DNA of 64,000 nucleotides, taken from an uncultured Erysipelotrichaceae bacterium (GTDB lineage Bacteria > Bacillota_I > Bacilli_A > RF39 > UBA660). Numbering within the stretch: position 1 is the stretch's first letter; each line of letters begins with the position of its first letter. The notes beneath the pieces are model-generated. The model saw nothing but the letters and a program-made list of their open reading frames with translations. It made no database searches and was not told where the DNA came from. The position numbers and the translations under genes are program-made. The stretch is from contig CADANX010000001.1 of the NCBI GenBank assembly GCA_902789425.1, positions 80,206-144,205 of the forward strand, read 5' to 3'. Positions 20,844 through 36,740 of the stretch are shown piece after piece.

Positions 20844-21116
20844 ATGGTAAAAGTAATAACACAAGAAATTGAGATTGAAGAATCTTTAAAGAAAAGAATC
20901 GAATTTATATGTAGTTTTTGTAATACTTCACCTGTAATAGAAAATGGTAGTTTAAGAACAATAGAAAGAACTAATCTAGCATATGTAGAGCCACATAGAA
21001 TAATTATAAAAGGAATTAACTTTCTAGCTTTCAACTATGAAACAAGTATATATATAGAAAGTTTAGAAAATAAAATTTCAATAAAAGATTTAGAATCTTA
21101 TATAAAAAGTATTTAA
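20844..21116 (+). CDS. hypothetical protein (90 aa) bracketed by 12-nt inverted repeats
   Basis: RBS aaagggg lies upstream of the ATG at 20844. No family recognised. Confidence 0.4.
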   Translation: MVKVITQEIEIEESLKKRIEFICSFCNTSPVIENGSLRTIERTNLAYVEPHRIIIKGINFLAFNYETSIYIESLENKISIKDLESYIKSI

Positions 21117-21124
21117 TCGACTTT

Positions 21125-21136
21125 ATCAATTCCATT
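21125..21136. repeat. 12-nt inverted-repeat arm (right)
   Basis: 'atcaattccatt' is the exact reverse complement of 20802-20813. Confidence 0.6.
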
Positions 21137-21289
21137 CAAATTATACGAAAGTATTGACTTTTGATAACTAAATGATTAATATATATAACCAATAAATGAC
21201 AAGCAGTATCCGTCTTTATTAGAAAGAGAGGTACACCTATGGTCAAATACAGAATGGAATTTATTAAAAATTATATATTGAATAATTAT

Positions 21290-23244
<1,955 letters not shown>

Positions 23245-23383
23245 TATAAGAAAATGTTTTATATAAAATATTTTCTATAATCATTTATTAATTTATATAG
23301 TATATAAATTTAAATGATTTATAAATTATCGTGGTTCGTTTTGTTCTGCAAAGAATGAAAGAAGCGATAGATAATTTCGGTTT

Positions 23384-23436
23384 CTAAGGTATGACCTTAG
23401 CTTCCATATCTTGTTCATGACAAGATATATAGGAAG
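23384..23436 (+). other. candidate oriT: two adjacent hairpins upstream of the relaxase gene
   Basis: IR-a: ctaagg (23384-23389), a 5-nt loop, ccttag (23395-23400). IR-b: atatcttgt (23406-23414), loop tcatg, acaagatat (23420-23428), extendable by cttcc/ggaag with a bulge. Confidence 0.4.
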
Positions 23437-23498
23437 TTATGAATTATGTCTTTATCGATTTTATCGCTAAAAAACAAATTCTTATTTAGGGGGAATAT

Positions 23499-24858: not shown

Positions 24859-25725
24859 ATGATAGATTTACATGTACACTCTGTATACTCTGATGGTTTT
24901 TTGACAGTCGAAGAATTAATTGATAATGCAAGAAGCAATGAAGTGAATATTATGTCAATAACTGATCACGATACTACTTTAGGTGTAGAAGAGTATAGTA
25001 AAAATATTAGAGATGATATTATAGTTATTCCTGGAGTAGAGTTTTCTACTGATACATATTATTTAGGTAAAAAGACTAAGATACATATGTTAGGTTATGG
25101 ATATAAAGTATATGATAAATTAATTAATAAAGTATTAAGTGATTTATATCAAAGACATTATAATGATAATAAAGGATATATAGAAGAATTAATAACTAAA
25201 TTTAATTATTTAAGTAATGAATTCTTTATAGATTTTAATTACGGTAAAAGTGGATGGTTATATAAACATATTTTAAATTGTGTTAATGAATATTTAAGTA
25301 AAGAAGAATTAGAAGAACTAAGAGAATACTTAGTTAATAATAAACCTAATTATAATAAATATAATGAAGATGTATGTGATGTTATTAAACTAATGAAAAG
25401 TATTGGTGGCTATGCAGTATTTGCACATCCTCAAAAATGTAATTTAACTAAAGAAGAATTAAGTATATTAGTTAAGTATTTAACTGATAATGGATTAGAC
25501 GGATTAGAAACATATCATATAGATTCTATTAGTAGTGATAGAAAGATAATTCATGACCTTGCATTAGAATATGGTTTATATGAAACTGGTGGAAGTGACT
25601 TCCATAGTTTCATATATGGAAATGGTGTTGGAGATACTAATATTAAATTTCCAGAAAATTATGATCCTTTACTAGTTAAAAGATTAATAAAAGAAAATAA
25701 GGTGTTGGGTGGTAAAAATGAATAA
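24859..25725 (+). CDS. PHP-domain metal-dependent phosphoesterase (TrpH/YciV-like)
   Basis: N-terminal 'IDLHVHSVYSDG...MSITDHDT', then 'FAHPQ' and 'GGSDFHS'. These are the characteristic PHP His/Asp metal ligands. Confidence 0.75.
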   Translation: MIDLHVHSVYSDGFLTVEELIDNARSNEVNIMSITDHDTTLGVEEYSKNIRDDIIVIPGVEFSTDTYYLGKKTKIHMLGYGYKVYDKLINKVLSDLYQRHYNDNKGYIEELITKFNYLSNEFFIDFNYGKSGWLYKHILNCVNEYLSKEELEELREYLVNNKPNYNKYNEDVCDVIKLMKSIGGYAVFAHPQKCNLTKEELSILVKYLTDNGLDGLETYHIDSISSDRKIIHDLALEYGLYETGGSDFHSFIYGNGVGDTNIKFPENYDPLLVKRLIKENKVLGGKNE

Positions 25726-26653
25726 TAAATTAATATTAGATATTTATAATAAGAAATATTTATTACCTATTTATTCTGGTTCTTTAGCTATAGAAGGAGT
25801 TTTAAGAAGTTTAAATTTAAATAGTAATGATAAAGTATTAATAACTAATGTAGTATGTCATAGTATTTTACAATCTATATTAAACGCTAATTTAACCCCA
25901 GTGATAGCAATACCAAGTAATGGTTTAACTTTGTCTAAAAAAGAAATTAAGGATATTGTTAAAAAAGAAAATATTAAGGTATTTATAGCAGTTCATCAAT
26001 ATGGATATGAACAAGAAATAATTAAAATAAAAGATTTAATAGTTATAGAAGATATTGCTCAGGCTTGGAACATTGTTTTAAGTGATGGATATGTAGGTAA
26101 GTATAGTGATTATATTGTTACATCTTTAGGTAAGAGTAAGGAGTTATGTAATGGTATTGGAGGACTTATTATATCTGATATTTATTTTATTAATAATTTT
26201 GATATTAAGAAAAGAGAATGTAGAAATAGTAATTCTAAGTTATTAGAATATTATTATCCAATAGATATTAATTATAAAAAATTATTAAAAATCGGTAATA
26301 GGAATGTTAAAAGAAATAGAAAAAATGCTAAGTATTATAAAAATATATTTAGTAAATATAATTTTATAAAGTTAGTTAATGAGAATAATAGTATTCCTAG
26401 TTATCATAGATTTTTAATTTATGTAAGTGATAAATATTATGAAGATATTATATATATATTAGATAAATGTAATATTAAATATCAAAAAGAATATAAAGAT
26501 AAATTAGATAATATTAATTTAGTTAAGAATAATAGGATAAAAGTTATTGGTAGTAATAATAGTAATGATAAATGTTTATTATTTAGAACTAATAATAGTT
26601 ATTTTAATATTAAAAAGTTAGAAAGGGAGTTGGTGAAGTATTATGGATCCTAA
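25718..26653 (+). CDS. divergent DegT/DnrJ/EryC1/StrS-like PLP-fold protein (possibly degenerate)
   Basis: 'SGSLAIEGVLRSLNL..DKVLITNVVCHSILQSI' resembles the N-terminal region of sugar aminotransferases. 'VTSLGKSKEL' is a candidate PLP-Lys segment. Overall similarity is weak, and the protein is shorter than gene 27602-28756. Confidence 0.4.
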   Translation: MNNKLILDIYNKKYLLPIYSGSLAIEGVLRSLNLNSNDKVLITNVVCHSILQSILNANLTPVIAIPSNGLTLSKKEIKDIVKKENIKVFIAVHQYGYEQEIIKIKDLIVIEDIAQAWNIVLSDGYVGKYSDYIVTSLGKSKELCNGIGGLIISDIYFINNFDIKKRECRNSNSKLLEYYYPIDINYKKLLKIGNRNVKRNRKNAKYYKNIFSKYNFIKLVNENNSIPSYHRFLIYVSDKYYEDIIYILDKCNIKYQKEYKDKLDNINLVKNNRIKVIGSNNSNDKCLLFRTNNSYFNIKKLERELVKYYGS

Positions 26654-27590
26654 GATTATGTATGTAAGAGTATCTGAAAATTGTAATTCACATTGTTTTA
26701 TGTGTCATTTTGCAGGTACTAGTAACGCTTTAAATATAAGTGATGAACAATATGATAAGTTATTAAATCATATGAAAAAGAAAAATTATAAGATGATTAG
26801 ATTTACTGGAGGAGAACCATTACTACATAAGAATATTATAGAGTTTATTAAGAAAGCTAAAGAGATTGGTGTTAAAGCATCTATTATTACTAATGGATAC
26901 TTATTACCTTTATATGTAGATAAGTTATTAAAAGTAGGTTTAGATGAATGTATTATTAGTTTAGATGGTTCTTGTAGTGAAGTACATGATAGTTTAAGAA
27001 ACTTTCCAGGATGTTTTGATAATATTATTAAGGGTATTAAATTATTAAAAGAAAAAGACATTATTATAAGAGTAAATACAGTAGTAAGTGGTAAAAATAT
27101 TTCAGATATTTGTAATATATATGATTTATTAATTAATTTAGGAGTAGATCAATGGTCTATTATTCCTGTTAAGTATAAAGAAAATTTATGGAATGAAGAT
27201 AGTATTAATTACTATAGAGAATTTGTAGATAAAGTTAAGGATTCTAATGATATTAAATTCTTAGGTTATTCTAAAAACTTTGCTGGTTTAAGTGATGAAG
27301 AGATAAAAGATACTTTTGATAATAATAGTAGATTAAGTATTAAAGATAATTGTAAGGTAGTTGATAATGTTAGATTCTATATTCCCGATAAAGATGTATT
27401 AGTACCATGTAATTGTGTTTCTCATAGACTAAAGGAATTACCTTTTAGTATTACTGGTGATATGGAAGAAGTTTGTGAGAAGATAAGATTATGGTTAAAG
27501 GAAAATAATTGTAGTTGTAAATGTGAACCATTAAATGTTTATATTAATGATCATCCAGAAATAATGGATGAAGATGAAATATTATATTAA
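26643..27590 (+). CDS. radical SAM enzyme with C-terminal Cys-rich extension
   Basis: CX3CX2C 'CNSHCFMCHF' lies near the N-terminus, and 'FTGGEPLLH' is present. Additional Cys residues occur in 'PCNCVSH' and 'NNCSCKCEP', which could hold an auxiliary cluster. Confidence 0.8.
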   Translation: MDPKIMYVRVSENCNSHCFMCHFAGTSNALNISDEQYDKLLNHMKKKNYKMIRFTGGEPLLHKNIIEFIKKAKEIGVKASIITNGYLLPLYVDKLLKVGLDECIISLDGSCSEVHDSLRNFPGCFDNIIKGIKLLKEKDIIIRVNTVVSGKNISDICNIYDLLINLGVDQWSIIPVKYKENLWNEDSINYYREFVDKVKDSNDIKFLGYSKNFAGLSDEEIKDTFDNNSRLSIKDNCKVVDNVRFYIPDKDVLVPCNCVSHRLKELPFSITGDMEEVCEKIRLWLKENNCSCKCEPLNVYINDHPEIMDEDEILY

Positions 27591-27601: not shown

Positions 27602-28756
27602 ATGATTAATCCAAATGAATATGGAAGTTTATTATTTGATGATAAGGAGAAGGAATATTTAAGTAATGTTATAGATTCTAGAAGAATATTTAGATATTCT
27701 AGAACAGATTATCCTTATACTAAAATGTGTGAAGAAAAGATATGTGAGTTAGTTAATTCTAAATATGCGTTATGTACTACTAATGGAACTTCTTCTTTAA
27801 AAAGTGCTATGGTAGGAGCTGGTGTTAGTTATGGTGATAGAGTATTAATAAGTTCTTATACTTTCTTAGCTACAGCACTTTCTGCAATTGCATTAGGAGC
27901 AACTGCAGTACCTATTGATGTAGATTTAGATTATGGACTTAATTTAGAAGATTTGGAAAATGAAATAAAAAAAGGATGTAAGGCAGTAGTTGCAGTACAT
28001 TTTCAAGGAAGAACTTTTGATTTAAGTAAGGTAGTTGAGTTATGCAAAAAATATAATGTTATGTTAATAGAAGATGCTTGCCAAGCATTTGGATCTAAAT
28101 ATAAAGATACTTATGCTGGTACTTTTGGAGATATAGGAGTATATAGTTTTCAACAATTTAAACAAATTACTTGTGGTGAAGGTGGTTGCTGTGTAACTAA
28201 TAATGAAGCTGTTTTTAATAGAATGAGAAATTATACTGATATGGGCTCTACTAGAGATAGATTTCCTTCTTGGAATAGTGAAGAAGCATTATTTGGTGAA
28301 AATTATAGAATGAACAATTTATGTTCTGCAGTACTTTATTCACAACTTGAAAAGTTAGATGATGTTATTTTAAGACAACGAAAGTCTAGAAGTAATATCA
28401 TGAGTAAGTTAAGTAATATAAATAATATATTAACAAGTAAAGATAGTAGTGGAGATACTTGTATGAATATAGTTATTATATTAAATGATAAAAACAATAA
28501 AGAAGATGTTATCAATTATGGTAAAGAATTAGATATTGAATTTAGAAATATGTGGTCTTCTTTATATTATGATAATGATTTATTTAGAAGAAATAATTTA
28601 ACTTCTATAGATATAAAGAATAACGAATGCAGTTATACTAAAGATTTAATAGAGAAAATGTTAGTTATTTCTATTCCACCAATATTAAGTAGTGATGATG
28701 AAGATATAATTGTTAATGCTATTAATGGTATTAAGGAGAAAGGGTATTTATCATGA
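27602..28756 (+). CDS. DegT/DnrJ/EryC1/StrS-family PLP-dependent (amino)sugar aminotransferase
   Basis: 'CTTNGTSSLKSAMVGAGVSYGDRVLISSYTFLATA', 'LIEDACQAFGS' and 'YSFQQFKQITCGEGG' (PLP-Lys context) are present. Confidence 0.8.
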   Translation: MINPNEYGSLLFDDKEKEYLSNVIDSRRIFRYSRTDYPYTKMCEEKICELVNSKYALCTTNGTSSLKSAMVGAGVSYGDRVLISSYTFLATALSAIALGATAVPIDVDLDYGLNLEDLENEIKKGCKAVVAVHFQGRTFDLSKVVELCKKYNVMLIEDACQAFGSKYKDTYAGTFGDIGVYSFQQFKQITCGEGGCCVTNNEAVFNRMRNYTDMGSTRDRFPSWNSEEALFGENYRMNNLCSAVLYSQLEKLDDVILRQRKSRSNIMSKLSNINNILTSKDSSGDTCMNIVIILNDKNNKEDVINYGKELDIEFRNMWSSLYYDNDLFRRNNLTSIDIKNNECSYTKDLIEKMLVISIPPILSSDDEDIIVNAINGIKEKGYLS

Positions 28757-29682
28757 TTATAGAGAGTATAAGTAGTAAGGAATATTTTGATATTGTAAGT
28801 AAGTTAGATTATATTCCTATATATAGTGATATAGAAGCAATTAATATTTATTCTAATAAAGAATTTATTAAAGTTAGCAAGAATGATAATGTTATTGCTG
28901 TAATGTTAGTACCTATTGATAATAGTGGAGTTAGAAGAGAATATAGATATTTCCCTTATATTAATCCTATATTTTTAGAAGAAGTAAATAATGTAAGTAA
29001 GAAAAATGTATTAAAGTTAATTTTTAATTATTTATTTAAGAAATATGATTATACTTTTATACCTTTACATCCTTCATTTAAATTGATTTCATCAATTCAA
29101 AGTGAAGGTGGTTTAGTAGAAATGAGACATACTCATATTACTAATACTAAATTAACTTTAGATAATGTATCATCTAAGTTAAGAAATCATATTAGAAGTG
29201 CAGAAAAGAATGTTCAAGTTTTAATAGATAGAGATTATAGTAATTTTAGTTTTGTGGATGCAATTAAAGGCAATAGTGATGAAGTAACAAAGAGAAGTAA
29301 GCTAACTAAGAAATTAATTGATAATGGTAAAGGTATTGTTGTTAAAGCATTTGTTGATGGAGAAGTAAAAGCTGGAGTTATTTGTGTATATGATAAAGAA
29401 TGGTCTTATTTATTACATTCCTATCAAGATAAAAGTATTAGAGGAGTTATTCCTTTACTTATATTAAAAGCTAATGAATATTTATTTGATAAAGTTGGTA
29501 TTAAGTATTTTGATTTTGAGGGTAGTGTTATAGATGAAATTGATGATTTTTTTTCAAGTTTTAATGTAGATATTATTAATTATCCTTATGTTATAGAAGC
29601 AAATACACAGGATAAATTGTATAATTTAATTAATAGAAGTATGAATATAGAAGGAAGGATTAAGTATTATGAAGATAAGTAG
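28753..29682 (+). CDS. FemAB / Acetyltransf_6-like GNAT-fold transferase
   Basis: 'SSKLRNHIRSAEKNVQV' and 'GEVKAGVICVYDKEWSYLLHSYQD...IKYFDFEG' follow the pattern of FemAB/BioF2-like GNAT proteins. The ATG overlaps the previous TGA (ATGA). Confidence 0.45.
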   Translation: MIIESISSKEYFDIVSKLDYIPIYSDIEAINIYSNKEFIKVSKNDNVIAVMLVPIDNSGVRREYRYFPYINPIFLEEVNNVSKKNVLKLIFNYLFKKYDYTFIPLHPSFKLISSIQSEGGLVEMRHTHITNTKLTLDNVSSKLRNHIRSAEKNVQVLIDRDYSNFSFVDAIKGNSDEVTKRSKLTKKLIDNGKGIVVKAFVDGEVKAGVICVYDKEWSYLLHSYQDKSIRGVIPLLILKANEYLFDKVGIKYFDFEGSVIDEIDDFFSSFNVDIINYPYVIEANTQDKLYNLINRSMNIEGRIKYYEDK

Positions 29683-30709
29683 TAGAGAGTTTAATAATAT
29701 TAAAGAAGGAAAACAAGTTTATATAGTTAGTGATGATAATAGTTATGATAATAAAGATATAGTATTACTTGAAAGTAATGATGATACTTTAGAAGTAGAA
29801 ATTACTATTAAGTATAAATATAATAGTTTAGAAGACTGTTTTAATTTATTACCATTTGATTTATTTGGGTTTGAAACTCAAGAAGAGGCATTAGATTATT
29901 ATAAAGATATTAATGATATTATAGTTTATCGTATTAAAGTAGATAATGATAGAAAGTTAGAAGATAATTTAGATGATGAAATATTAGATTTAATTGATGT
30001 TTCTTCTATTGTAAAAAATAATGTTGGCCACAGTGCTAGTGAAGTTTATGAATTAAAGTTAAAAGATGGAACTGAAGCTATTTTAAAAGTACAATATTTA
30101 AGTAGTAGAAATGATTTAAAAGGTGAATATGAAAGAAATAAATGGTTAGAAGATAAATTAAATGTACCTAAAGTATTTTGTTTTAAAGAAATAAATAAAG
30201 TTCAATATTATTTAAGAGAAAAGAGTATTGGAGTATCTGTTCATAAAGTTGATAATTTTGCTCCATTAGTAGGAGAAAATTTAAAAGAAATACATAGTGT
30301 AGATATAAGTGATTGTCCATTTGATAATAATGATACTTTAAAATTATTAGATATTGCATTATCTAAGATAGATATTATATTACCTAATATTATAGAATTA
30401 TACCCTGATATGAATAAAGAAAGTATCATAGAATTCTTAAAAAATAAAAGACCTCTTGATAGAGTATTAGTACATGGTGATTACAGTCTACCTAATATAT
30501 TAGTAGATGTGGATAGAACAGTAAGTTTAATTGATTTAGGAGATGTAAGTATTTCTACTAAGTATTTCGATTTATATTATTTAAGAAAAAGTTTTAATAG
30601 AAATAAAAAAATGGATTATTTTAATGAATTTTTAGAAAGTTATGGTTTATCTAGTTTAGATGATGATTCTATGAAATGGATGGACATTATTGATAAGGTA
30701 TTATACTAA
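29669..30709 (+). CDS. fusion protein: N-terminal ASCH-like domain + C-terminal APH-family (aminoglycoside phosphotransferase-type) kinase
   Basis: The N-terminal ~95 aa ('FNNIKEGKQVYIV...LEVEITIKYKYNSLEDCFNLLP...GFETQEEALDYY...IIVYRIKV') are ASCH-like. The C-terminal part has 'AILKVQ', the catalytic 'VLVHGDYSLPNILVD' and 'SLIDLGDVSIS', as in APH(3')-type kinases. Confidence 0.7.
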   Translation: MKISSREFNNIKEGKQVYIVSDDNSYDNKDIVLLESNDDTLEVEITIKYKYNSLEDCFNLLPFDLFGFETQEEALDYYKDINDIIVYRIKVDNDRKLEDNLDDEILDLIDVSSIVKNNVGHSASEVYELKLKDGTEAILKVQYLSSRNDLKGEYERNKWLEDKLNVPKVFCFKEINKVQYYLREKSIGVSVHKVDNFAPLVGENLKEIHSVDISDCPFDNNDTLKLLDIALSKIDIILPNIIELYPDMNKESIIEFLKNKRPLDRVLVHGDYSLPNILVDVDRTVSLIDLGDVSISTKYFDLYYLRKSFNRNKKMDYFNEFLESYGLSSLDDDSMKWMDIIDKVLY

Positions 30710-32802
30710 TGATAGTTATAAAAACTATTGATGAGTTAAGTAATTATGAAGAATTAATTAGGGGGTTAAAAATTAATAATTATCAACAAACTTATGAAAA
30801 TATTTATTCTATTTATTTATCTAATGATAGTGCTATTAGTTTTTTAGATAAAGATATGTTTACTGTATTAACTAAAAGAGATGATAATATTTATGAATGT
30901 CCTTTAAATATAGAACCTATAATAAATTCTAATAATCCTAAAAATGAATTATTAGAGTTTATAAATGATATTAAAGATTATTTAGGAAAGATTATTTATT
31001 TTTCTTTAGTATATGAAGATTCCAACTTTTATAAATTATTAAATAATGATTTATATACTTATGATAGATTATATACTTCAATATGTGATTATAGTAAGAT
31101 AGATAATATTTTAGATAGAGTATTAAGCAGTGAAAAAGTTCATTATTCTAATAGAAATGTTAAGAAGTTTAAGAATAATTTATATATTAAATATTATAGT
31201 AATATTGATCCTACTGATATTATTGTTAGTATTGAAAAGGATAGTTGGAAGAATATTGCTAAGCAAGATATGATTAATAAGAAAGAACAATTATTATATT
31301 ATTCTTCTTTAGTTAAGTTAGGTGTTGCTAATATAGCAGTATCATATATGAAAGATAGTAATGATATAGTATCTTATAGATTAGAAACTATTTATAATAA
31401 TAAGGTACATGTTTTAAAGAATTCTTTTAGAGAAAAATATAAGAAATATTCTCCTGGATCTTATATGTTAATTAGTGATTTATATAATAATTATAAAGAT
31501 TATAATTATGTAGATTTATATGGTGGACCAGGTTTAGTTAAAGATATGATAGAAACTAGAAGAGTTAATAGATATGATATGTTAATAGGAGAAGAAGATA
31601 TTATTAAGGATCTTGAAGTAAGAAGAAAAAGATGGGATTTAAAAAATTATAGTAATTTTTTAAATGATAAATCTATTAAATATATCTTTAATAAGAAAGA
31701 AAATATATTAGCTGTTACTAGTTGTTTTGGATTAGGTCCAGTTGGTAAGTTAAGTGCTATTGTTGAGACTAGTAAAAATGATTTTAATTGGTATGCATCT
31801 GGAGAAGAATTTGATATAAATATTTTTAATGATAAGAATATATTTATAGATAAATGTTTTACGATGGATAAAGAGATATTAAAGGAATTTTTAGATAAAT
31901 ATAATATTAAGTATGCTTTAGTAGTACTAAAAAATAAAATGGCCCGTTTATTACTTGAATTAGGAATTAAAGTTATATATGTAGACAGTTTACCTTTTAT
32001 GTGGAGTATGGAAGATGCTAATAGTGGTAAGGTACCATATAATGTAGATTGTTATTGTGCACAAAAAACTATTGAATTATCAAGCATCTCAAAAGAAATA
32101 TTTAGTAAAGTTAAAAATTTAGTTTGGGTAGATCCAATTGTTAATAAGAATAATATTAATTTAAGTAATAAGAAAAGTAATTATATATTAGTTAATATTG
32201 GAGGATTACATTCTCCTAGTACTAATGGATATGATTATGTAGATGTTGTTATAAAAAATTTAATTAGGATATATAAAGATTATAAGATTATTATTACTAC
32301 TTCTTTAAAATCATCTATTTATTTAAAAGAAGATTTAAAAGAATATAGTAATGTAGATGTTAAAACATTGAAACAAAGAGAATTTTTTCAGTATATAAAT
32401 AATGCTAAGTTATTTATTACTAGTCCTGGTTTAACGACGATATTAGAAAGTAGAAATATTATTGATAAGGTAGTATTTTTACCTCCACAGAATATAAGTC
32501 AGTTTTATAATGTAGAATATGGTAAAAAGATATTTAAATATTATAAGGAGTTAACATGGAATAATAATAAATTAACTATAGTTGGTTTAAATAAATATTT
32601 AGAGTTAGATGAACATGGTGTTATTGAAGTAATAAATAATGAAATAAGTAAGATGAGTAATGAAAGTGAAAAAGAAACTTATATGAATTATATGAAAAAT
32701 ATTTTAGATAGTTATTATATAGAAAATAAAGATAATGATAATATAACTTTTAATGGAGTTAATGAAGTTATAGAAAATATAAAGAAAGTAATGGGGGAAT
32801 AA
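30709..32802 (+). CDS. fusion protein: Acetyltransf_6/FemAB-like GNAT domain + C-terminal GT-B glycosyltransferase-like domain
   Basis: The N-terminal half has 'EKDSWKN', 'VSYRLETIYNNKVHVLKNSF', 'KYSPGSYML' and 'YVDLYGG' (CelD/BioF2-like GNAT pattern). The C-terminal half has 'YILVNIGGLHSP', 'LFITSPGLTTILES' and 'VVFLPPQNISQFYN', reminiscent of the MurG/GT28-type C-terminal domain. Confidence 0.45.
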   Translation: MIVIKTIDELSNYEELIRGLKINNYQQTYENIYSIYLSNDSAISFLDKDMFTVLTKRDDNIYECPLNIEPIINSNNPKNELLEFINDIKDYLGKIIYFSLVYEDSNFYKLLNNDLYTYDRLYTSICDYSKIDNILDRVLSSEKVHYSNRNVKKFKNNLYIKYYSNIDPTDIIVSIEKDSWKNIAKQDMINKKEQLLYYSSLVKLGVANIAVSYMKDSNDIVSYRLETIYNNKVHVLKNSFREKYKKYSPGSYMLISDLYNNYKDYNYVDLYGGPGLVKDMIETRRVNRYDMLIGEEDIIKDLEVRRKRWDLKNYSNFLNDKSIKYIFNKKENILAVTSCFGLGPVGKLSAIVETSKNDFNWYASGEEFDINIFNDKNIFIDKCFTMDKEILKEFLDKYNIKYALVVLKNKMARLLLELGIKVIYVDSLPFMWSMEDANSGKVPYNVDCYCAQKTIELSSISKEIFSKVKNLVWVDPIVNKNNINLSNKKSNYILVNIGGLHSPSTNGYDYVDVVIKNLIRIYKDYKIIITTSLKSSIYLKEDLKEYSNVDVKTLKQREFFQYINNAKLFITSPGLTTILESRNIIDKVVFLPPQNISQFYNVEYGKKIFKYYKELTWNNNKLTIVGLNKYLELDEHGVIEVINNEISKMSNESEKETYMNYMKNILDSYYIENKDNDNITFNGVNEVIENIKKVMGE

Positions 32803-32803
32803 T

Positions 32804-33250
32804 ATGAAAATTTATTTAGCAAGTCCTATATCAAAATATGTTAGAAATGGTATGGATAAAGATTATACGGAAACTATTGATAAGGTATATGAATTATTAT
32901 GTAAGCATGGAGAAGTTTATTATCCACTAAAAAAAGAAGCTTATGGAGAAGATAAGACAACAGGATCTGGAGAAGTTTGTACTAAAGTTGATTTTGATAA
33001 AGTTAATGAAGCAGATTTAATTGTTGCTTTTCCAGAAGATTCACAAGGTGTATCAGTTGAAATGGGTTGGGCCAGTTCAGCTAAAAAGAATGTATTAATA
33101 TTTATTGATAAGAATTATCATCAATCTGAATTAATTAGATTTATTGATACTGTAACACCTGCAGTTAAAGCAAATATTAATACTTGTGATGGTTATAAAA
33201 AACAAGAAAAAGAAATATTAGATGCAATAAATAAATATTTTGGAGAATAA
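32804..33250 (+). CDS. nucleoside 2-deoxyribosyltransferase-family protein (possible nucleotide N-glycosidase, BlsM/MilB-like)
   Basis: 148 aa with 'MKIYLASPIS', 'EADLIVAFPED' and 'GVSVEMGWA' (candidate catalytic Glu). This is the typical Nuc_deoxyrib_tr pattern. Confidence 0.65.
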   Translation: MKIYLASPISKYVRNGMDKDYTETIDKVYELLCKHGEVYYPLKKEAYGEDKTTGSGEVCTKVDFDKVNEADLIVAFPEDSQGVSVEMGWASSAKKNVLIFIDKNYHQSELIRFIDTVTPAVKANINTCDGYKKQEKEILDAINKYFGE

Positions 33251-33252: not shown

Positions 33253-34344
33253 ATGGAATTAAAGTGTGATTTTCAAGTTCATCATCCACTAGGTGGAGCT
33301 TCATATGTTTTTGAACATGATTTAATTAATTATATTTTACGTAAGGTTAAGAAGGATAAGATTGTTATTAGTATAGGAGCACAACCTAATTCTTCTCCTC
33401 ACTTTGGAACATTATGTGTTTTTTCATTGGCATTTTCATTAGCCAGTTTAATTAAATCGAAAAGTTGTAAGGAAGTAGAAGTATTATTTGAAGTAGTTGA
33501 TACTGCTCCAAGTAAAACTATTACTGTTAATGGAATTAAATATCAAATGGATTTAAAAGAATCTAATAAGATGAGTGAATCTATGAATGATTTTGAAGAA
33601 ATATTAGAGTATTATAGTAAGAAGAATAATATTAAATATAGTATTAGAAATCAAAATGAATTTAATGGTCAAGAAGAGATTAAAAATATTTTAAGTAATA
33701 TTGTTAATCATGAAGATGATGTTAAATTTTTATTAGATCCAGATAATGGTAGATTAAGAATGAGATGTTCTTGTTTAGAATGTGGTTTAGTCGATAAAGA
33801 AGGTATTAATACAGTTATTAAAGATAATATAATTGAATCCTTTTGCCCTAATCATGGAGAATATAAGGTGGATTATATGATTGAAAGTAATAGAGTTGAA
33901 TATAATACTCCTTTACGTAATTTAGTTAGAGCTATTATGTATGGAATTATTAATGATAGTAGTTCATATGATTATGAAATAATCAGAATTACTGGTGGAG
34001 ATTATGCTGGCTTTTATCAAGAAGAATTATTATATAAGGCATCTTCTATATTAGGATATGAAGCTAATAAGTTGCCTATGATAGTTTATTGTCCACAAAT
34101 ACTTGATTGGTCTGGAGCTAAATTATCTAAAAGCTTATATGTAAAAGAAGGTGCTTATCAATATTTACCAAAATATGTAATTAATTATTCTTATTTAAGA
34201 GATAAATTTGGTATTAATGGATTAGATGTAATAATTGATGAAACTAAATTATGGTTAAATGAACCATATAGATTATTTAGAAATTATTCAGTTTATTATT
34301 TTATAAAATTATTTGAAGAGAGGTATAATAATGGAATTAAGTAA
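33253..34344 (+). CDS. class-I aminoacyl-tRNA-synthetase-like protein (truncated, no anticodon-binding domain evident) with Cys cluster
   Basis: HIGH-like 'SPHFGT' (aa 48-53), KMSKS-type 'KLSKS' (aa 290-294), and 'ITGGDYAG'. An inserted cluster 'CSCLEC...CPNH' uses Cys172/174/177/198 and His201. Confidence 0.55.
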   Translation: MELKCDFQVHHPLGGASYVFEHDLINYILRKVKKDKIVISIGAQPNSSPHFGTLCVFSLAFSLASLIKSKSCKEVEVLFEVVDTAPSKTITVNGIKYQMDLKESNKMSESMNDFEEILEYYSKKNNIKYSIRNQNEFNGQEEIKNILSNIVNHEDDVKFLLDPDNGRLRMRCSCLECGLVDKEGINTVIKDNIIESFCPNHGEYKVDYMIESNRVEYNTPLRNLVRAIMYGIINDSSSYDYEIIRITGGDYAGFYQEELLYKASSILGYEANKLPMIVYCPQILDWSGAKLSKSLYVKEGAYQYLPKYVINYSYLRDKFGINGLDVIIDETKLWLNEPYRLFRNYSVYYFIKLFEERYNNGIK

Positions 34345-34630
34345 AGTACAAAAAGAGGTAATAGAAAATAAAATAAATCATGGTTTTAATACTAATGATG
34401 TTAATAAAGAATTTTTATTATTATATGGTGAAGTAAGTGAAGCTTATGAAGCATATAGAAAGAAGAAAGATGATTTGGGTGGAGAGTTAGCTGATGTAGC
34501 AATTTATCTACTTGGAATTTCTGAAATATTAGGTTTTGATTTAGAAGACGAAATAAATAAAAAAATGGAAATAAATAAGAATAGAATTTATAAGAAAGTA
34601 AATGGTGTAAATATCAAAATTGACAATTAA
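34331..34630 (+). CDS. MazG-like nucleoside-triphosphate pyrophosphohydrolase (small all-alpha type)
   Basis: 'LLLYGEVSEAYEAYRK' and 'ELADVAIYLLGISE' form the EExxE / ExxD helical pair typical of MazG-type proteins. The start is set at the ATG at 34331, behind gaagagagg, overlapping the previous gene. Confidence 0.7.
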   Translation: MELSKVQKEVIENKINHGFNTNDVNKEFLLLYGEVSEAYEAYRKKKDDLGGELADVAIYLLGISEILGFDLEDEINKKMEINKNRIYKKVNGVNIKIDN

Positions 34631-34668: not shown

Positions 34669-36327
34669 ATGACAGAACTAAGTTTAAATAATATTGAAAA
34701 AACATTCGGTTTTAAAAAGATATTAAATGGTTTTGATCTAGAATTAAAAACTGGTGAAAGAGTTGCTTTAATAGGACCTAATGGTTCAGGTAAAACAACT
34801 ATATTTAATATGATAACTGGAGATGAAATTCCAACTGCTGGTCAAATATCTATAAGAAAGGGTGCTACTGTAGGATTCTTATCTCAAATGCCTCCTAAAT
34901 ATGATGATGAAGCTACTGTAAGAGATATTATAGTTCAAGGGAAAACTAAATTATTAGAAGTAGAAGCTAAATTAAGAAAATTAGAAAACAAATTAGGTCA
35001 ATGTGATCCTGATCAAATGGATGATTTATTAAAATCTTATGGGCAATTACAAGAAGCATTTGAAAACATGGGTGGTTATCAATTAGAATCAGATATTAGT
35101 AAAGTATGTGGTGGTTTTAAAATATCAGATGAAATGATGGATAGAAAATTTTCTACTTTATCTGGTGGAGAAAAAACTATTGTATCTTTTGCTAAATTAA
35201 TTTTAAGTGAACCAACTATATTATTATTAGATGAACCTACTAATCATTTAGATATTAGTACTCTAGAATGGTTAGAAGAATATTTAAAAAATTATAAAGG
35301 TAGTATTTTAATAAGTTCACATGATAGATATTTTTTAGATCAAGTAACAAATAAAACTATATTAATTGATAGAGGTAAGAGTGAAGTATTCTTTGGTAAT
35401 TATTCTTATTATTTAGAAGAAAATGAAAGAAGAATAATGGCTGAATTTGAAGATTTTAAAGATCAACAAAAACAAATAGCTGCTATGAAAGCTTCTATTA
35501 AGAAATTACAAGAATTTGGTAGATTAGCTTTCCCTGGAGGAGAAGCATTCTTTAAAAGAGCTGCTAGTATTCAAAAAAGATTAGATAAATTAGAATTATT
35601 GGATAAACCAGAAGAAAAGAAAGATATTCCACTTGATTTCCAAATTAGTAAACGTAGTGGTAAAGATGTTTTAATTATTGAAGATTTATCTGCCATGATT
35701 GGTGATAAAGTATTATTTGATGGAGCTAATATGCATATTACTTTCGGAGATAAAGATTGCTTAATGGGGAAAAATGGTAGTGGTAAATCAACATTAATAA
35801 AAATGATATTAGAACAATCTAATGCTGAATTATTAGGTGGAAAAATAAAATTAGGTAGTAATGTAATAATAGGTTATTTACCTCAGGAAATACGTTTTGA
35901 AAATGAAGATGCTACTATATTAGAAACTGCTAGGCAATTTTATGATGGAACTGAAACTCATTTAAGAGCTAGTTTAGCTAAGTTCTTATTTTATGAAGAT
36001 AATGTATTTAAAAAAGTCAAAACTTTATCTGGTGGTGAAAAGGTTAGATTAAAATTATTCGAATTAATTCAAAAGAATGCTAATTTCTTAATTTTAGATG
36101 AACCAACAAACCATATTGATATAGATACTAAAGAAATGTTAGAAGAAGCATTAAAAGAATATAATGGTACGTTATTATTTATATCACATGATAGATATTT
36201 TATTAACAAATTGGCTAAAAATACTATGGAAATTAATGATGAACATATAGATAATTACATTGGCAATTACGATTATCTAAAAGAACAAAAAACAAAATTA
36301 TTACAAAAGAGTAGTATAAAAAGATGA
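34669..36327 (+). CDS. ABC-F family ATPase (no transmembrane domain; candidate ribosome-protection / translation factor)
   Basis: It has two ATP-binding cassettes: Walker A 'GPNGSGKTT' and 'GKNGSGKST', two 'LSGGE' signatures, and 'LLLDEPTNHLD' / 'LILDEPTNHID'. A charged inter-domain linker of about 75 aa separates them. Confidence 0.9.
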   Translation: MTELSLNNIEKTFGFKKILNGFDLELKTGERVALIGPNGSGKTTIFNMITGDEIPTAGQISIRKGATVGFLSQMPPKYDDEATVRDIIVQGKTKLLEVEAKLRKLENKLGQCDPDQMDDLLKSYGQLQEAFENMGGYQLESDISKVCGGFKISDEMMDRKFSTLSGGEKTIVSFAKLILSEPTILLLDEPTNHLDISTLEWLEEYLKNYKGSILISSHDRYFLDQVTNKTILIDRGKSEVFFGNYSYYLEENERRIMAEFEDFKDQQKQIAAMKASIKKLQEFGRLAFPGGEAFFKRAASIQKRLDKLELLDKPEEKKDIPLDFQISKRSGKDVLIIEDLSAMIGDKVLFDGANMHITFGDKDCLMGKNGSGKSTLIKMILEQSNAELLGGKIKLGSNVIIGYLPQEIRFENEDATILETARQFYDGTETHLRASLAKFLFYEDNVFKKVKTLSGGEKVRLKLFELIQKNANFLILDEPTNHIDIDTKEMLEEALKEYNGTLLFISHDRYFINKLAKNTMEINDEHIDNYIGNYDYLKEQKTKLLQKSSIKR

Positions 36328-36740
36328 TGGATTTTGGAATTTTTTTAAGTATTAAGCCTAATTTCGTTAGAATTATAGAAAGTGGTAAAAAAAATTTTGA
36401 ATTTAGAAAATATAAACCTAAAAAAGATTTTAATAAAATATATGTTTATGAATCCCATCCAACTTGTATGTTAAAATATATTATATATATAGATAAAATT
36501 GTTGAATACCCTAATAAAATAGATGAATTTGGTATAGGTAATAATGATTTTAATAATGGTTTAAAAAAATCAAAATATGCTTATCATATTTTACATCTTG
36601 ATATGTTAGAAGAGCCCATTACGTTGAAGTATTTAAAGACAATGTTTAACTTTTATCCACCGCAATCTTTTATATATGAAAATAGTAATTATGAATTGAA
36701 AAAATATATTGATAAATTAAAAAAAGTTAGAATTTATTAA
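36324..36740 (+). CDS. stand-alone ASCH-domain protein
   Basis: 'LSIKPNFVRIIESGKKNFEFRKY', 'IYVYESHP' and 'PPQSFIY' match the typical ASCH pattern. It is translationally coupled to the ABC-F gene (ATGA overlap). Confidence 0.65.
   Translation: MMDFGIFLSIKPNFVRIIESGKKNFEFRKYKPKKDFNKIYVYESHPTCMLKYIIYIDKIVEYPNKIDEFGIGNNDFNNGLKKSKYAYHILHLDMLEEPITLKYLKTMFNFYPPQSFIYENSNYELKKYIDKLKKVRIY

What the first reader, a model, noticed from the sequence alone, without database searches (positions are those of the whole stretch)
33253..34344. Stand-alone class-I aaRS-like catalytic core with an inserted CxCxxC...CxxH cluster
Seen in sequence: this 363-aa protein has a HIGH-like 'PHFG' (aa 49-52) and a canonical KMSKS-type 'KLSKS' (aa 290-294). 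It shows no evident anticodon-binding domain. A Cys/His cluster (C172, C174, C177, C198, H201) lies between the two signature motifs.

Established knowledge (recalled): truncated aaRS paralogs act in natural-product and tRNA-modification chemistry. BlsK of the blasticidin S pathway is an aaRS-like, Fe-S-containing, tRNA-dependent aminoacyltransferase. GluQRS is another example of a truncated paralog.

Inference: this protein either activates an amino acid or uses aminoacyl-tRNA to decorate the pathway intermediate. It may feed the two FemAB-like transferases in the same operon. An aaRS-like protein, FemAB-like domains and a nucleoside-type toolkit in one operon is an unusual combination.
Basis: partly seen in the sequence, partly recalled or inferred. 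Interest (0 to 1): 0.7.

Follow-up and report, generated by a model that had tools for sequence, protein, structure and literature searches.

The report
aaRS-like ligase paired with ASCH protein
This gene encodes a truncated tRNA-synthetase-like enzyme from a large, unnamed family found in bacteria, archaea, fungi, plasmids and phages that almost always travels with a small ASCH-fold partner, and here the pair sits in a blasticidin-like antibiotic gene cluster on a mobile island.

Summary
ORF 33253-34344 (+) encodes 363 aa with PHFG (49-52), KLSKS (290-294) and the listed Cys/His residues. A confident AlphaFold model (pLDDT 91.6) matches class I lysyl-tRNA synthetase best, then GluRS, ArgRS, BshC, MetRS, GluQRS and CysRS. 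There is no anticodon-binding domain.

- Only C174, C177, C198 and H201 are conserved; C172 is not. The site is a CxxC...CxxH knuckle, most likely zinc.
- The protein is not stand-alone. In about 57 of 62 genome loci its gene abuts a 138-aa ASCH-fold gene, and fusions exist. In the window that partner is ORF 36324-36740, displaced by MazG-like and ABC-F genes.
- Only the subclade at least 62% identical, plus one Clostridia locus, lies in the cytosyl-nucleoside cluster.
- Other members sit in gut Bacilli and Clostridia, CPR bacteria, DPANN archaea, fungi, plasmids and Streptomyces prophages. Every source name found is 'hypothetical protein', apart from one JGI 'Zn-ribbon' label and the phages' 'tRNA synthetase'.
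- ORF 28753-29682 is Fem-like (aa-tRNA-dependent transferase fold). The second claimed Fem-like domain has only a weak signal.

My best reading (confidence about 0.35) is a two-part adenylate-forming ligase that acylates a cytosine-type acceptor, for tailoring or self-protection. tRNA-directed and BlsK-like readings remain open.

The parts
33253..34344 (+). Subunit A: class I aaRS-like catalytic core, 363 aa, LysRS-I/GluRS-like, no anticodon-binding domain
   Evidence: ORF and translation. AF2 pLDDT 91.6, pTM 0.91. Foldseek top hit 1IRX, class I LysRS, E 1.8e-9. 455 homologues and 498 clusters at 50% identity.
33397..33408 (+). HIGH-type motif PHFG (aa 49-52), within the invariant stretch 'GAQPNSSPHFGT'
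   Evidence: It follows strand 36-43 and starts helix 51-70.
33772..33855 (+). Metal knuckle C174-x2-C177...C198-x2-H201 in a beta-hairpin insertion (aa 170-207) between the two Rossmann halves
   Evidence: Invariant in 78 homologues and in distant relatives. Strands 170-207. C172 is not conserved.
34120..34134 (+). KMSKS-type motif KLSKS (aa 290-294), within the nearly invariant 'DWSGAKLSKS'
   Evidence: It lies in a low-pLDDT mobile loop after strand 276-280.
36324..36740 (+). Subunit B: 138-aa ASCH-fold partner (ZmASCH-like, G-x-K23-x-x-E26-x-R28 motif). It is the displaced partner of subunit A.
   Evidence: 43-46% identical to the gene directly downstream of A in CPR and DPANN loci. Adjacent to A in about 57 of 62 loci. 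A-B fusions P0031, P0050 and P0073. Profile hits PDB 5GUQ/5GUS at E 4e-11. PADLOC PDC-M11B at E 5e-16.
34313..34630 (+). MazG-like NTP pyrophosphohydrolase. Its start overlaps the end of A (gene callers elsewhere start it at the equivalent of 34331).
   Evidence: Pfam MazG-like/MazG hits just below threshold. 66-67% identical copies lie beside A-B-C cassettes that have no antibiotic cluster, in L040 and L052.
34669..36327 (+). ABC-F ribosomal-protection-type ATPase (likely self-resistance)
   Evidence: NCBIfam NF000355, 444 bits against a cut-off of 380.
32804..33250 (+). Nucleoside 2-deoxyribosyltransferase-fold protein (BlsM/MilB-type CMP hydrolase candidate), ending 2 nt before A
   Evidence: PF05014, E 1.5e-9. 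Always directly upstream of A in the cluster loci.
30709..32802 (+). 697-aa fusion: unknown N-terminal half (weak GNAT/Acetyltransf_6 hit) plus a C-terminal half resembling cytosylglucuronate synthase
   Evidence: TIGR04467, 165 bits over aa 340-657, below the cut-off of 300. PF13480, E 0.0035.
29669..30709 (+). APH-family kinase
   Evidence: PF01636, E 1.7e-18.
28753..29682 (+). Fem-like tandem-GNAT protein, probably an aa-tRNA-dependent aminoacyl transferase
   Evidence: AF2 pLDDT 94.5. Foldseek hits Sba18/Sbb17, FemX, FemA and MprF, E 8.5e-12, TMq 0.67.
27602..28756 (+). DegT-family sugar aminotransferase
   Evidence: PF01041, E 2e-74.
26643..27590 (+). Radical SAM enzyme resembling BlsE (cytosylglucuronate decarboxylase)
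   Evidence: TIGR04466, 184 bits (below the cut-off of 400). PF04055.
25709..26653 (+). Short DegT-like PLP protein
   Evidence: PF01041, E 2.8e-17.
24859..25725 (+). PHP-domain phosphoesterase, first gene of the operon
   Evidence: PF02811, E 1.3e-11.
20370..24782 (+). Island boundary and mobility genes: tmRNA gene (20370-20747), large serine recombinase (21310-23244), Mob_Pre relaxase (23499-24782)
   Evidence: Rfam RF00023, 145 bits. Pfam Resolvase/Recombinase and Mob_Pre. The identical A protein occurs on contigs with different downstream flanks.

Best explanation
The protein is the catalytic subunit (A) of a mobile two-part enzyme. Its second part is the ASCH-fold protein (B) encoded at 36324-36740.

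Shown:
- A has a class I aaRS nucleotide-binding core with intact HIGH and KMSKS motifs.
- A has a Cys3His knuckle in the insertion where, from memory, class Ib synthetases carry their zinc-binding acceptor-arm domain.
- A is genetically coupled to an ASCH protein by adjacency, overlapping reading frames and fusions. This coupling spans bacteria, archaea, plasmids and phages; no ASCH partner was found for the fungal homologues.

Inferred mechanism:
- A binds ATP and an amino acid (or another carboxylate) and forms an acyl-adenylate.
- B belongs to a fold whose characterised members bind N4-acylcytidine, free or in tRNA. B keeps that fold's Lys/Glu/Arg motif. I propose that B presents the acceptor amine of a cytosine-type base or nucleoside, which then attacks the adenylate.
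- In this operon the acceptor would be the cytosine moiety, or another amine, of the cytosyl-aminosugar nucleoside or its free-base precursor.
- The acylation would act as tailoring that also masks the drug inside the producer. The role is analogous to BlsK leucylation in blasticidin S, but the chemistry would be ATP-driven, like MshC or TmcAL.
- The same cassette on other mobile elements would carry the same chemistry as a portable resistance or base-modifying module.
For: - Fold and motifs.
- Coupling of A to B: 43-46% identical partner directly downstream in CPR and DPANN loci; adjacency in about 57 of 62 loci; A-B fusion proteins; the pairing persists at 29% identity in a different operon; it also holds with a C-type ASCH in actinobacterial plasmids and Streptomyces phages.
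- B is ASCH. Its profile hits ZmASCH structures at E 4e-11, and K23, E26 and R28 are invariant. A third gene, C, hits PH0355/PF0455 ASCH at E 1e-20.
- A preprint reports that ASCH proteins hydrolyse N4-acetylcytidine and deacetylate tRNA, with the Lys and Glu essential.
- Link to nucleotides and free bases, through non-homologous analogues next to A. Enzymes that release a base from an NMP: NDT-like here, LOG-like in Pantoea, AMP-phosphorylase-type plus PNP in DPANN. NTP pyrophosphatases: MazG-like here and in L040 and L052, Ham1 in Pantoea.
- Small-molecule contexts with exporters or other ligases: L063, L068 with a CysRS/MshC-like gene and DegT, and a Macrococcoides plasmid with two ATP-grasp ligases and an MFS transporter.
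- Amide formation on the sugar amine is already covered by the Fem-like ORF, which frees A for a capping role.
- A sits in the 3' part of the operon with the ABC-F resistance gene.
- The A copies inside the cluster keep every family invariant, so the chemistry is shared with the cassettes outside clusters.
- Precedent for capping as self-resistance.
Against: - No substrate, donor or product is shown. Everything beyond fold and gene linkage is inference.
- B and C keep the catalytic dyad of amidohydrolases, which would undo an N-acylation unless B is repurposed as a binding or transfer module.
- Three cluster loci (L069-L071) have A but no B within 10 kb, so A can apparently work without B there.
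- ZmASCH-type proteins bind RNA and tRNA, the nearest structural relatives of A are true tRNA synthetases, and A's metal knuckle sits where (from memory) class Ib synthetases carry their acceptor-arm-binding zinc domain. All three points fit a tRNA substrate equally well.
- The stand-alone cassettes in CPR, DPANN and fungi have no known cytosine-nucleoside drug to act on.
- Class Ib synthetases (GluRS, GlnRS, ArgRS, LysRS-I) generally need tRNA to activate their amino acid (established knowledge).
Confidence: 0.35

Rival explanations
1. tRNA-directed enzyme. A plus the ASCH partner form a split minimal synthetase or tRNA-modifying enzyme. The ASCH protein replaces the missing anticodon-binding domain as the tRNA-binding module. 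The pair either charges a tRNA, which in this operon would supply aa-tRNA to the Fem-like transferase, or writes an acyl or aminoacyl mark on a tRNA nucleoside, like GluQRS on queuosine or TmcAL on C34.
For: - The nearest folds are bona fide class Ib synthetases and GluQRS.
- HIGH and KMSKS are invariant.
- The Cys3His knuckle sits in the insertion that, from memory, binds zinc and the acceptor arm in E. coli GluRS.
- In a preprint, relatives of B and C deacetylate tRNA in vitro, ZmASCH among the 19 proteins tested.
- A Fem-like aa-tRNA user lies in the same operon.
- tRNA is a universal substrate, which fits a family found in three domains of life.
- Phage annotators called the pair 'tRNA synthetase' and 'RNA binding protein'.
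Against: - Most loci have no aa-tRNA-using enzyme nearby.
- No dedicated tRNA gene accompanies the cassette.
- The distribution is patchy and tied to mobile elements, which is unlike a core decoding function.
- Several distant operons look like small-molecule pathways with exporters.
- Three cluster loci lack B.
Confidence: 0.25
2. BlsK-type capping enzyme. A uses aminoacyl-tRNA, not ATP, as donor. The aminoacyl-A76 end occupies the adenylate site. A transfers the amino acid to a free amine of the peptidyl-nucleoside intermediate, giving a cryptic, less toxic intermediate. The three Cys (plus His) would bind an Fe-S cluster as reported for BlsK.
For: - BlsK is described as a [3Fe-4S]-containing, tRNA-dependent aminoacyltransferase that leucylates demethylblasticidin S for self-resistance, and leucylation lowers toxicity about 20-fold.
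- The pathway type matches: BlsE-like, CGA-synthase-like and BlsM-like genes.
- Three invariant Cys residues.
- aaRS-like enzymes that use aa-tRNA on nucleoside drugs are known, namely AcmF and SbzA.
- An adjacent or nearby methyltransferase recurs in distant relatives. From memory this parallels BlsL next to BlsK.
Against: - Homology to BlsK could not be tested, since neither its sequence nor the paper was available.
- Strict conservation of both ATP-site motifs is more than an aa-tRNA binder would need. From memory, cyclodipeptide synthases, which use aa-tRNA, lost them.
- The CxxC...CxxH beta-knuckle looks like a zinc site.
- This reading does not explain the ASCH partner or the hundreds of cassettes outside clusters.
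Confidence: 0.15
3. MshC/BshC-type biosynthetic ligase. A activates an amino acid with ATP and ligates it directly to the 4'-amino group of the aminosugar-cytosine core, as the main peptide-bond-forming step.
For: - BshC is among the structural hits (rank 8).
- A distant paralogue sits next to a CysRS/MshC-like gene and a DegT aminotransferase in a Woesearchaeote.
- The operon makes an amino sugar (DegT).
Against: - The operon already has a Fem-like transferase whose closest structures acylate an aminosugar amine.
- The cluster copies of A keep all family invariants, yet most family members lack any aminosugar pathway.
Confidence: 0.1
4. Writer-eraser toxin-antitoxin or anti-phage module. A places a toxic acyl mark on RNA or DNA cytidines and the ASCH protein removes it, in the manner of DarT-DarG. 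In this reading the module merely hitch-hikes on the island.
For: - Genes are tightly overlapped and lie on plasmids, integrative elements and prophages, beside integrases and restriction-modification systems.
- B matches the PADLOC defence candidate PDC-M11B.
Against: - A has no PADLOC match.
- A-B fusions exist.
- A occurs without B in three cluster loci with all invariants kept.
- A holds a fixed position in the middle of the operon across copies 62-92% identical.
- The core clade is nearly absent from IMG/VR.
Confidence: 0.08

Closest known systems
Class I lysyl-tRNA synthetase (Pfam PF01921; PDB 1IRX) and GluRS (class Ib synthetases)
   Same: Best structural match (E 1.8e-9, TMq 0.53). 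HIGH and KMSKS motifs are in canonical positions. There is a 'TGxDY' element reminiscent of the class Ib 'GxDH' signature (from memory). A Cys/His metal knuckle sits in the Rossmann insertion, similar to the CxCx24CxH zinc site I recall for E. coli GluRS. Some homologues score 26.6 bits on PF01921.
   Different: There is no anticodon-binding domain and the protein is 363 aa rather than about 520. The target has no Pfam or NCBIfam hit. A family profile finds no synthetase in the PDB by sequence. The gene is encoded on mobile elements with an ASCH partner.
GluQRS (YadB), glutamyl-queuosine tRNA(Asp) synthetase
   Same: A truncated class Ib paralogue with no anticodon-binding domain and a zinc site. 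It activates an amino acid and puts it on a modified nucleoside rather than on A76. It is a structural hit (4A91 and 1NZJ).
   Different: No sequence-level relationship was detected. GluQRS has no ASCH partner and is a chromosomal housekeeping-type gene.
BlsK of the blasticidin S pathway
   Same: An accessory enzyme in a cytosyl-peptidyl-nucleoside cluster that aminoacylates an intermediate as self-protection. It carries a Cys-bound metal cluster.
   Different: BlsK uses Leu-tRNA and a [3Fe-4S] cluster. Here the ATP motifs are invariant and the site looks like zinc. Homology was not testable. No ASCH partner is known to me for BlsK.
MshC, BshC and TmcAL (aaRS-like ATP-dependent ligases with non-A76 acceptors)
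   Same: The proposed chemistry is the same: an acyl-adenylate formed on a class I core, then attack by an amine. In MshC the amine is the GlcN-Ins amine; in TmcAL it is N4 of C34 (and established knowledge). BshC is a structural hit.
   Different: These belong to other subfamilies (CysRS-like and MetRS-like). They are single polypeptides with their own substrate-binding domains and are not mobile cassettes.
ASCH amidohydrolases (YqfB, ZmASCH, PH0355) - for the partner proteins
   Same: B and C share the fold family and the GxKxxExR motif. Characterised members act on N4-acylcytidine and on tRNA ac4C.
   Different: I found no report of ASCH proteins paired or fused with a synthetase-like enzyme (search).
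SbzA and AcmF (aaRS-like aa-tRNA-dependent transferases in nucleoside and sulfonamide antibiotic pathways)
   Same: Synthetase-fold enzymes inside antibiotic clusters that aminoacylate a small molecule.
   Different: They are near full-length IleRS-like or AlaRS-like proteins, not a 363-aa LysRS-I-like core.

Membership tests
Class I aminoacyl-tRNA synthetase superfamily (HUP Rossmann fold) | Rossmann-type nucleotide-binding fold | tested here: met
   AF2 pLDDT 91.6. 121 PDB hits at E <= 0.001; of the 50 listed, all but BshC are class I synthetases or GluQRS.
Class I aminoacyl-tRNA synthetase superfamily (HUP Rossmann fold) | HIGH motif after the first strand and KMSKS motif after the second Rossmann half | tested here: met
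   PHFG follows strand 36-43. KLSKS follows strand 276-280. Both are invariant in the family.
Class I aminoacyl-tRNA synthetase superfamily (HUP Rossmann fold) | Anticodon-binding domain and tRNA aminoacylation activity | tested here: not met
   Only about 50 helical residues follow KLSKS, so there is no anticodon-binding domain. Catalytic activity cannot be tested with these tools.
Class I LysRS (PF01921) | Score at or above the Pfam gathering threshold | tested here: not met
   The target has no hit. Homologues P0013 and P0054 score 26.6 and 26.3 bits against a cut-off of 27, over the N-terminal half only.
GluQRS / GluRS (PF00749) | Sequence membership in tRNA-synt_1c | tested here: not met
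   No Pfam hit. Structural similarity only.
BlsK-type tRNA-dependent aminoacyltransferase | Sequence or structural homology to BlsK | not testable with these tools
   No BlsK sequence or paper was available.
BlsK-type tRNA-dependent aminoacyltransferase | Residence in a cytosyl-peptidyl-nucleoside cluster | tested here: met
   BlsE-like, CGA-synthase-like and BlsM-like neighbours. However, this holds only for one subclade of the family.
BlsK-type tRNA-dependent aminoacyltransferase | [3Fe-4S] cluster and use of aa-tRNA as donor | not testable with these tools
   Three invariant Cys plus one His fit either Zn or Fe-S. This needs metal analysis and enzyme assays.
MshC/BshC cysteine ligases | CysRS-like catalytic domain (PF01406) or BshC family membership | tested here: not met
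   No Pfam or NCBIfam hit. BshC 4WBD is only rank 8, TMq 0.44, rmsd 20.
ASCH domain (partner B, 36324-36740) | ASCH beta-barrel family membership and GxKxxExR motif | tested here: met
   The family profile hits ZmASCH 5GUQ/5GUS at E 4e-11. K23, E26 and R28 are invariant. Pfam ASCH hits on orthologues are subthreshold, E 0.002-0.003.
FemAB/GNAT aa-tRNA-dependent transferases (ORF 28753-29682) | Tandem-GNAT Fem fold | tested here: met
   AF2 pLDDT 94.5. Foldseek hits Sba18/Sbb17, FemX and FemA at E about 1e-11, TMq 0.64-0.69.
FemAB/GNAT aa-tRNA-dependent transferases (N-terminal half of ORF 30709-32802) | Fem/GNAT fold | tested here: inconclusive
   Only PF13480 at E 0.0035, below threshold. No PDB sequence hit. 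No profile similarity to the confirmed Fem-like ORF.
Known or candidate anti-phage defence systems (PADLOC) | Match of subunit A to any PADLOC model | tested here: not met
   No hit for A from the window, CPR, DPANN or gut Bacilli. Only B matches PDC-M11B.

The most novel reading that the evidence does not exclude
The aaRS-like core plus ASCH protein is an undescribed two-component enzyme, spread by mobile elements across bacteria and archaea, with the synthetase-like subunit also present in fungi. It would write an aminoacyl or acyl group onto the exocyclic amine of cytosine or cytidine, in nucleoside antibiotics, free nucleosides or tRNA. That would make it either a new antibiotic-resistance or prodrug mechanism against universal peptidyl-transferase inhibitors, or a new nucleoside or RNA modification system with a built-in eraser.
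Probability: 0.25. Interest if true: 0.85.

Novelty: new variant of a known kind. Interest (0 to 1): 0.72.

Why it matters
Truncated synthetase paralogues such as GluQRS, MshC, TmcAL, cyclodipeptide synthases and BlsK have each revealed new chemistry. This one defines a large family: 498 clusters at 50% identity.

- It is found in gut Bacilli and Clostridia, CPR bacteria, DPANN archaea, basidiomycete and chytrid fungi, plasmids and prophages.
- It has no Pfam or NCBIfam model. Every source name found was 'hypothetical protein', except one JGI 'Zn-ribbon' label and the phages' 'tRNA synthetase'.
- It has an obligate-looking ASCH partner that I found no report of.

If the pair acylates cytosine-type acceptors, it would be a new resistance or prodrug mechanism for blasticidin-like ribosome inhibitors in animal-gut communities. 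If it acts on tRNA, it would be a new mobile tRNA-modifying or tRNA-charging system.

The host operon is also of interest in its own right. It is a compact blasticidin/gougerotin-type nucleoside cluster on a mobilisable island in a 22-26% GC gut bacterium, far from the actinomycetes where such pathways are known.

Tried and rejected
- Pfam, NCBIfam and PADLOC scans of the target gave no hits.
- phmmer of the target and hmmsearch of the 78-sequence family profile against PDB sequences found no synthetase. The relationship is visible only by structure.
- The BlsK paper could not be opened by PMC id or DOI. Other papers gave BlsK's role but not its fold. BlsK homology is therefore left untested.
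- hhalign of partner B against gene C found no significant similarity beyond the GxKxxExR motif. I treat them as two distinct ASCH subfamilies.
- The N-terminal half of the 697-aa protein gave no PDB hit by sequence or profile and showed no similarity to the Fem-like ORF.
- A search for direct repeats marking the island ends next to the tmRNA gene found nothing convincing.
- ARAGORN on 57 loci found no tRNA gene consistently linked to the cassette.
- An IMG/VR scan for the core clade found no relatives with the automatic patterns, and one contig with a DWSGAKLSKS pattern. I therefore rejected 'typical phage gene'.
- I considered that the fungal 500-aa forms might carry an N-terminal ASCH fusion. 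Their extensions look low-complexity and Pfam found nothing.
- I considered that MazG-like simply feeds CMP to the pathway. That remains possible, but the same MazG-like gene (66-67% identical) accompanies cassettes outside any cluster.
Full report
**Observation.** ORF 33253-34344 (+) encodes 363 aa. A GGAG ribosome-binding site lies 9 nt upstream. The stop codon of the preceding gene is 2 nt before the ATG.

The motifs are not chance strings. In 78 homologues that are 48-92% identical, H50, G52, T53 and K290, S292, K293 are invariant. They sit within the blocks 'GAQPNSSPHFGT' and 'DWSGAKLSKS'. The motifs survive in relatives at 22-30% identity. C172 is not conserved. The conserved metal-type cluster is C174-x2-C177...C198-x2-H201.

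**Fold.** Pfam, NCBIfam and PDB sequence searches find nothing for the target. Two homologues score 26.6 and 26.3 bits on PF01921 (class I LysRS), against a cut-off of 27.

An AlphaFold2 model built on the 78-sequence alignment is confident: pLDDT 91.6, pTM 0.91. PHFG follows strand 36-43 and opens helix 51-70. KLSKS lies in a lower-confidence loop after strand 276-280. The Cys/His knuckle lies in a beta-hairpin insertion (residues 170-207) between the two Rossmann halves.

- Foldseek against the PDB gives class I LysRS 1IRX first (E 1.8e-9, TMq 0.53).
- Next come GluRS, a putative ArgRS, BshC, MetRS, GluQRS and CysRS.
- The viral library gives giant-virus synthetases and a 375-aa 'lysine-tRNA ligase' of Halogranum tailed virus 1.

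After KLSKS there is only a roughly 50-residue helical tail, so there is no anticodon-binding domain. The Cys3His site matches in position and ligand type the zinc site I recall for E. coli GluRS (CxCx24CxH in the acceptor-arm-binding insertion). Several zinc-bound GluRS structures are among the hits. An Fe-S cluster cannot be excluded from sequence alone.

**The operon.** The gene lies in a co-directional operon spanning 24859-36740. Its genes, in order, are:

1. PHP phosphoesterase.
2. Short DegT-like protein.
3. BlsE-like radical SAM enzyme.
4. DegT aminotransferase.
5. A 309-aa protein with no family match.
6. APH-like kinase.
7. A 697-aa protein whose C-terminal half resembles cytosylglucuronate synthase.
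8. A BlsM-like nucleoside-deoxyribosyltransferase-fold protein.
9. The target.
10. A MazG-like protein.
11. An ABC-F ribosomal-protection protein.
12. A 138-aa protein with no family match.

This is a blasticidin/gougerotin-type cytosyl-aminosugar pathway with ribosome-protection resistance, in DNA of 22-26% GC. The operon follows a tmRNA gene, a large serine recombinase and a Mob_Pre relaxase. The identical protein occurs on contigs with different downstream flanks. The cluster therefore appears to be cargo of a mobilisable island.

The 309-aa ORF folds confidently (pLDDT 94.5). Its best PDB matches are the aa-tRNA-dependent peptide synthases Sba18 and Sbb17 (complexed with an aminosugar substrate), FemX, FemA and MprF. 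One 'FemAB-like' transferase is therefore confirmed. The N-terminal half of the 697-aa protein has only a weak GNAT hit and no similarity to the first.

**The family and its partner.** The target has 455 homologues in the 90%-clustered collection and 498 clusters at 50% identity. Named members are 'hypothetical protein', except one JGI entry ('predicted nucleic-acid-binding Zn-ribbon protein') and the phage 'tRNA synthetase' label. Carriers include:

- gut Bacilli and Clostridia;
- Saccharibacteria, WWE3 and Peribacteria;
- Woese-, Pace- and Nanoarchaeia;
- Methanosarcinales and Halobacteriales;
- Muribaculaceae;
- Thermoactinomycetaceae (Thermoactinomyces and Planifilum);
- a chytrid and several basidiomycetes.

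In Patescibacteria and DPANN loci the gene is not in any antibiotic cluster. It is followed, with overlapping reading frames, by a 138-147-aa gene and then by a roughly 120-aa ASCH gene. The 138-aa protein is 43-46% identical to window ORF 36324-36740.

- Across 62 genome loci, the synthetase-like gene (A) is directly followed by this partner (B) in about 57.
- 44 of the 67 loci examined (the 62 plus extra contigs) also carry the third gene (C), sometimes as a tandem ASCH-ASCH protein.
- Natural A-B fusions exist.
- A profile of B hits the Zymomonas ASCH structures 5GUQ and 5GUS (E 4e-11), and B keeps an invariant G-x-K-x-x-E-x-R motif.
- A profile of C hits the Pyrococcus ASCH proteins PH0355 and PF0455 (E 1e-20).
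- B also matches the PADLOC candidate PDC-M11B. A matches nothing in PADLOC.

The target is thus one half of a conserved pair. In the window the pair has been split by the MazG-like and ABC-F genes.

**Where the pair occurs.**

- The nucleoside cluster accompanies only the subclade at least 62% identical to the target (L007, L008, L069-L071) and one Clostridia locus at 54% (L021), where A and B are still adjacent at the end of the operon.
- Three cluster loci have A but no B within 10 kb.
- A 29%-identical relative in a Ruminococcaceae genome sits with a B homologue (hhalign 96.8%). Its neighbours are a pyruvate-kinase-barrel protein, an alanine-dehydrogenase-like protein, a methyltransferase and two ABC exporters.
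- A 25%-identical relative in a Woesearchaeote sits between radical SAM/SPASM genes, a CysRS/MshC-like gene and a DegT aminotransferase. This relative lacks the HIGH motif.
- Macrococcoides and Macrococcus plasmids carry a 44-45% identical A. In the Macrococcoides bohemicum plasmid, the only one inspected, the operon is two ATP-grasp ligases, A and B, beside an MFS transporter and a recombinase.
- A Pantoea megaplasmid has methyltransferase, A, a LOG-like TIGR00730 protein, a DMT transporter and a Ham1 pyrophosphatase.
- Actinomycete plasmids and the temperate Streptomyces phages Picard and Mojorita carry A followed by a C-type ASCH. The pair lies beside integrases or a type ISP restriction enzyme. 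The phage genes are annotated 'tRNA synthetase' and 'RNA binding protein'.
- The core clade is almost absent from IMG/VR.
- No tRNA gene is consistently linked to the cassette.

**Inference on function.**

1. The cluster copies of A keep every family invariant and are 50-57% identical to the copies outside clusters. The biochemical activity is therefore probably shared. The acceptor must then be either something universal (tRNA, or a common nucleobase, nucleoside or nucleotide) or an exogenous compound, as for a resistance enzyme.
2. A is repeatedly flanked by non-homologous enzymes that release a free base from an NMP. These are the NDT-like protein here, the LOG-like protein in Pantoea, and an AMP-phosphorylase-type protein plus PNP in DPANN. 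It is also flanked by NTP pyrophosphatases: MazG-like here and in two loci outside clusters at 66-67% identity, and Ham1 in Pantoea.
3. Characterised ASCH proteins hydrolyse N4-acylcytidine and remove ac4C from tRNA, using the motif's Lys and Glu.
4. From established knowledge, TmcAL shows that a synthetase-like enzyme can acylate N4 of cytidine through an acyl-adenylate (mentioned).
5. Sugar-amine acylation in this operon is already provided by the Fem-like ORF.

My best-supported reading (about 0.35) is therefore as follows. A forms an acyl- or aminoacyl-adenylate. With the ASCH partner presenting the acceptor, A transfers the acyl group to an amine of a cytosine-type base or nucleoside. In this operon that would be a tailoring and self-protection step, comparable in role to BlsK leucylation. 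Shown: the fold, the motifs, the gene linkage and the distribution. Inferred: the donor, the acceptor and the biological role.

**Rivals.**

- A tRNA-directed function (about 0.25) fits the synthetase neighbours, the acceptor-arm-type metal knuckle, the RNA-binding relatives of B and the Fem-like neighbour. Here A-B would be a split minimal synthetase feeding the Fem-like enzyme, or a GluQRS/TmcAL-like tRNA modifier. It fits poorly with the mobile, patchy distribution and with the many loci that have no aa-tRNA-using enzyme.
- A BlsK-type, aa-tRNA-dependent, Fe-S enzyme (about 0.15) remains open because BlsK could not be compared.
- An MshC-like sugar-amine ligase (about 0.1) and a writer-eraser toxin or defence module (about 0.08) are less likely. 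The second is weakened by A-B fusions, by the B-less cluster loci and by the absence of any PADLOC match for A.

**Novelty.** Stand-alone synthetase-like paralogues are a known kind. A LysRS-I-like core coupled to ASCH proteins, spread by mobile elements across bacteria and archaea and present without a known partner in fungi, and embedded in a Firmicute blasticidin-like cluster, was not found in the literature searched. I rate it a new variant of a known kind, with interest about 0.7.

Noticed in passing
window 20370-24782: A tmRNA gene (145 bits) is followed by a large serine recombinase and a Mob_Pre relaxase, and then by the antibiotic operon. This looks like an integrative mobilisable island at ssrA. 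I found no flanking direct repeats.
   Followed up: partly
window 24859-36740: A compact blasticidin/gougerotin-type cytosyl-aminosugar nucleoside cluster in 22-26% GC DNA. It contains BlsE-like, DegT, Fem-like, APH-like kinase, CGA-synthase-like fusion, BlsM-like and ABC-F genes. The same gene order is kept in at least six other gut-metagenome loci 62-92% identical. Its product is unknown.
   Followed up: partly
window 29669-30709 and 24859-25725: An APH-family kinase and a PHP phosphoesterase in the same operon suggest a phosphorylate-then-dephosphorylate self-protection or prodrug cycle, separate from the ABC-F resistance gene.
   Followed up: no
window 38053-40895: A Fur-family regulator plus a ZnuA/ZnuC/ZnuB-type metal uptake operon lies about 1.3 kb downstream of the island. 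It is probably unrelated host sequence. I note it because the target has a probable zinc site.
   Followed up: no
L063 6575-15959 (Ruminococcaceae MAG): A different operon built around a 29%-identical A and a B homologue. It also contains a pyruvate-kinase-barrel protein, an AlaDH/PNT-like protein, a methyltransferase, two ABC exporters and an NTP_transf_5 protein, downstream of a LytTR two-component system. It looks like an unknown small-molecule pathway.
   Followed up: partly
L068 7325-12685 (Woesearchaeota MAG): A distant paralogue of A with the HIGH motif deleted lies between two radical SAM/SPASM genes, a 412-aa CysRS/MshC-like protein and a DegT aminotransferase. This may be an archaeal aminosugar-amino acid conjugate pathway.
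   Followed up: partly
L075 3548-7462 (Macrococcoides bohemicum plasmid p19Msa0383-2): A plasmid operon of two ATP-grasp ligases, A (45% identical) and B, next to an MFS transporter, HTH regulators and a tyrosine recombinase.
   Followed up: partly
L076 5941-7412 (Streptomyces phage Mojorita gp28-gp29): A temperate phage carries A ('tRNA synthetase') overlapping a C-type ASCH ('RNA binding protein'), directly beside its serine integrase. This is a moron-like position.
   Followed up: partly
P0258, P0244, P0245, P0248, P0255, P0268, P0316 (fungal proteins): Chytrid and basidiomycete genomes encode family members with all motifs kept. Some have 100-150-residue N-terminal extensions or sit inside much larger gene models. 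No ASCH partner was identified for them.
   Followed up: partly
L078 5198-8978 (Pantoea sp. JZ29 megaplasmid): Methyltransferase, A (30% identical), a LOG-like TIGR00730 protein, a DMT transporter and a Ham1 NTP pyrophosphatase. This parallels the window's NDT-like, A and MazG-like trio using non-homologous enzymes.
   Followed up: no
L001, L013, L061 (CPR loci): In Patescibacteria, Saccharibacteria and WWE3 loci a tRNA-His gene lies downstream of the A-B-C cassette, 75 nt away in L013 but about 5-6 kb away in L001 and L061. In L001 the cassette also lies next to an Eco57I-type restriction-modification system. This could be island-like placement.
   Followed up: no
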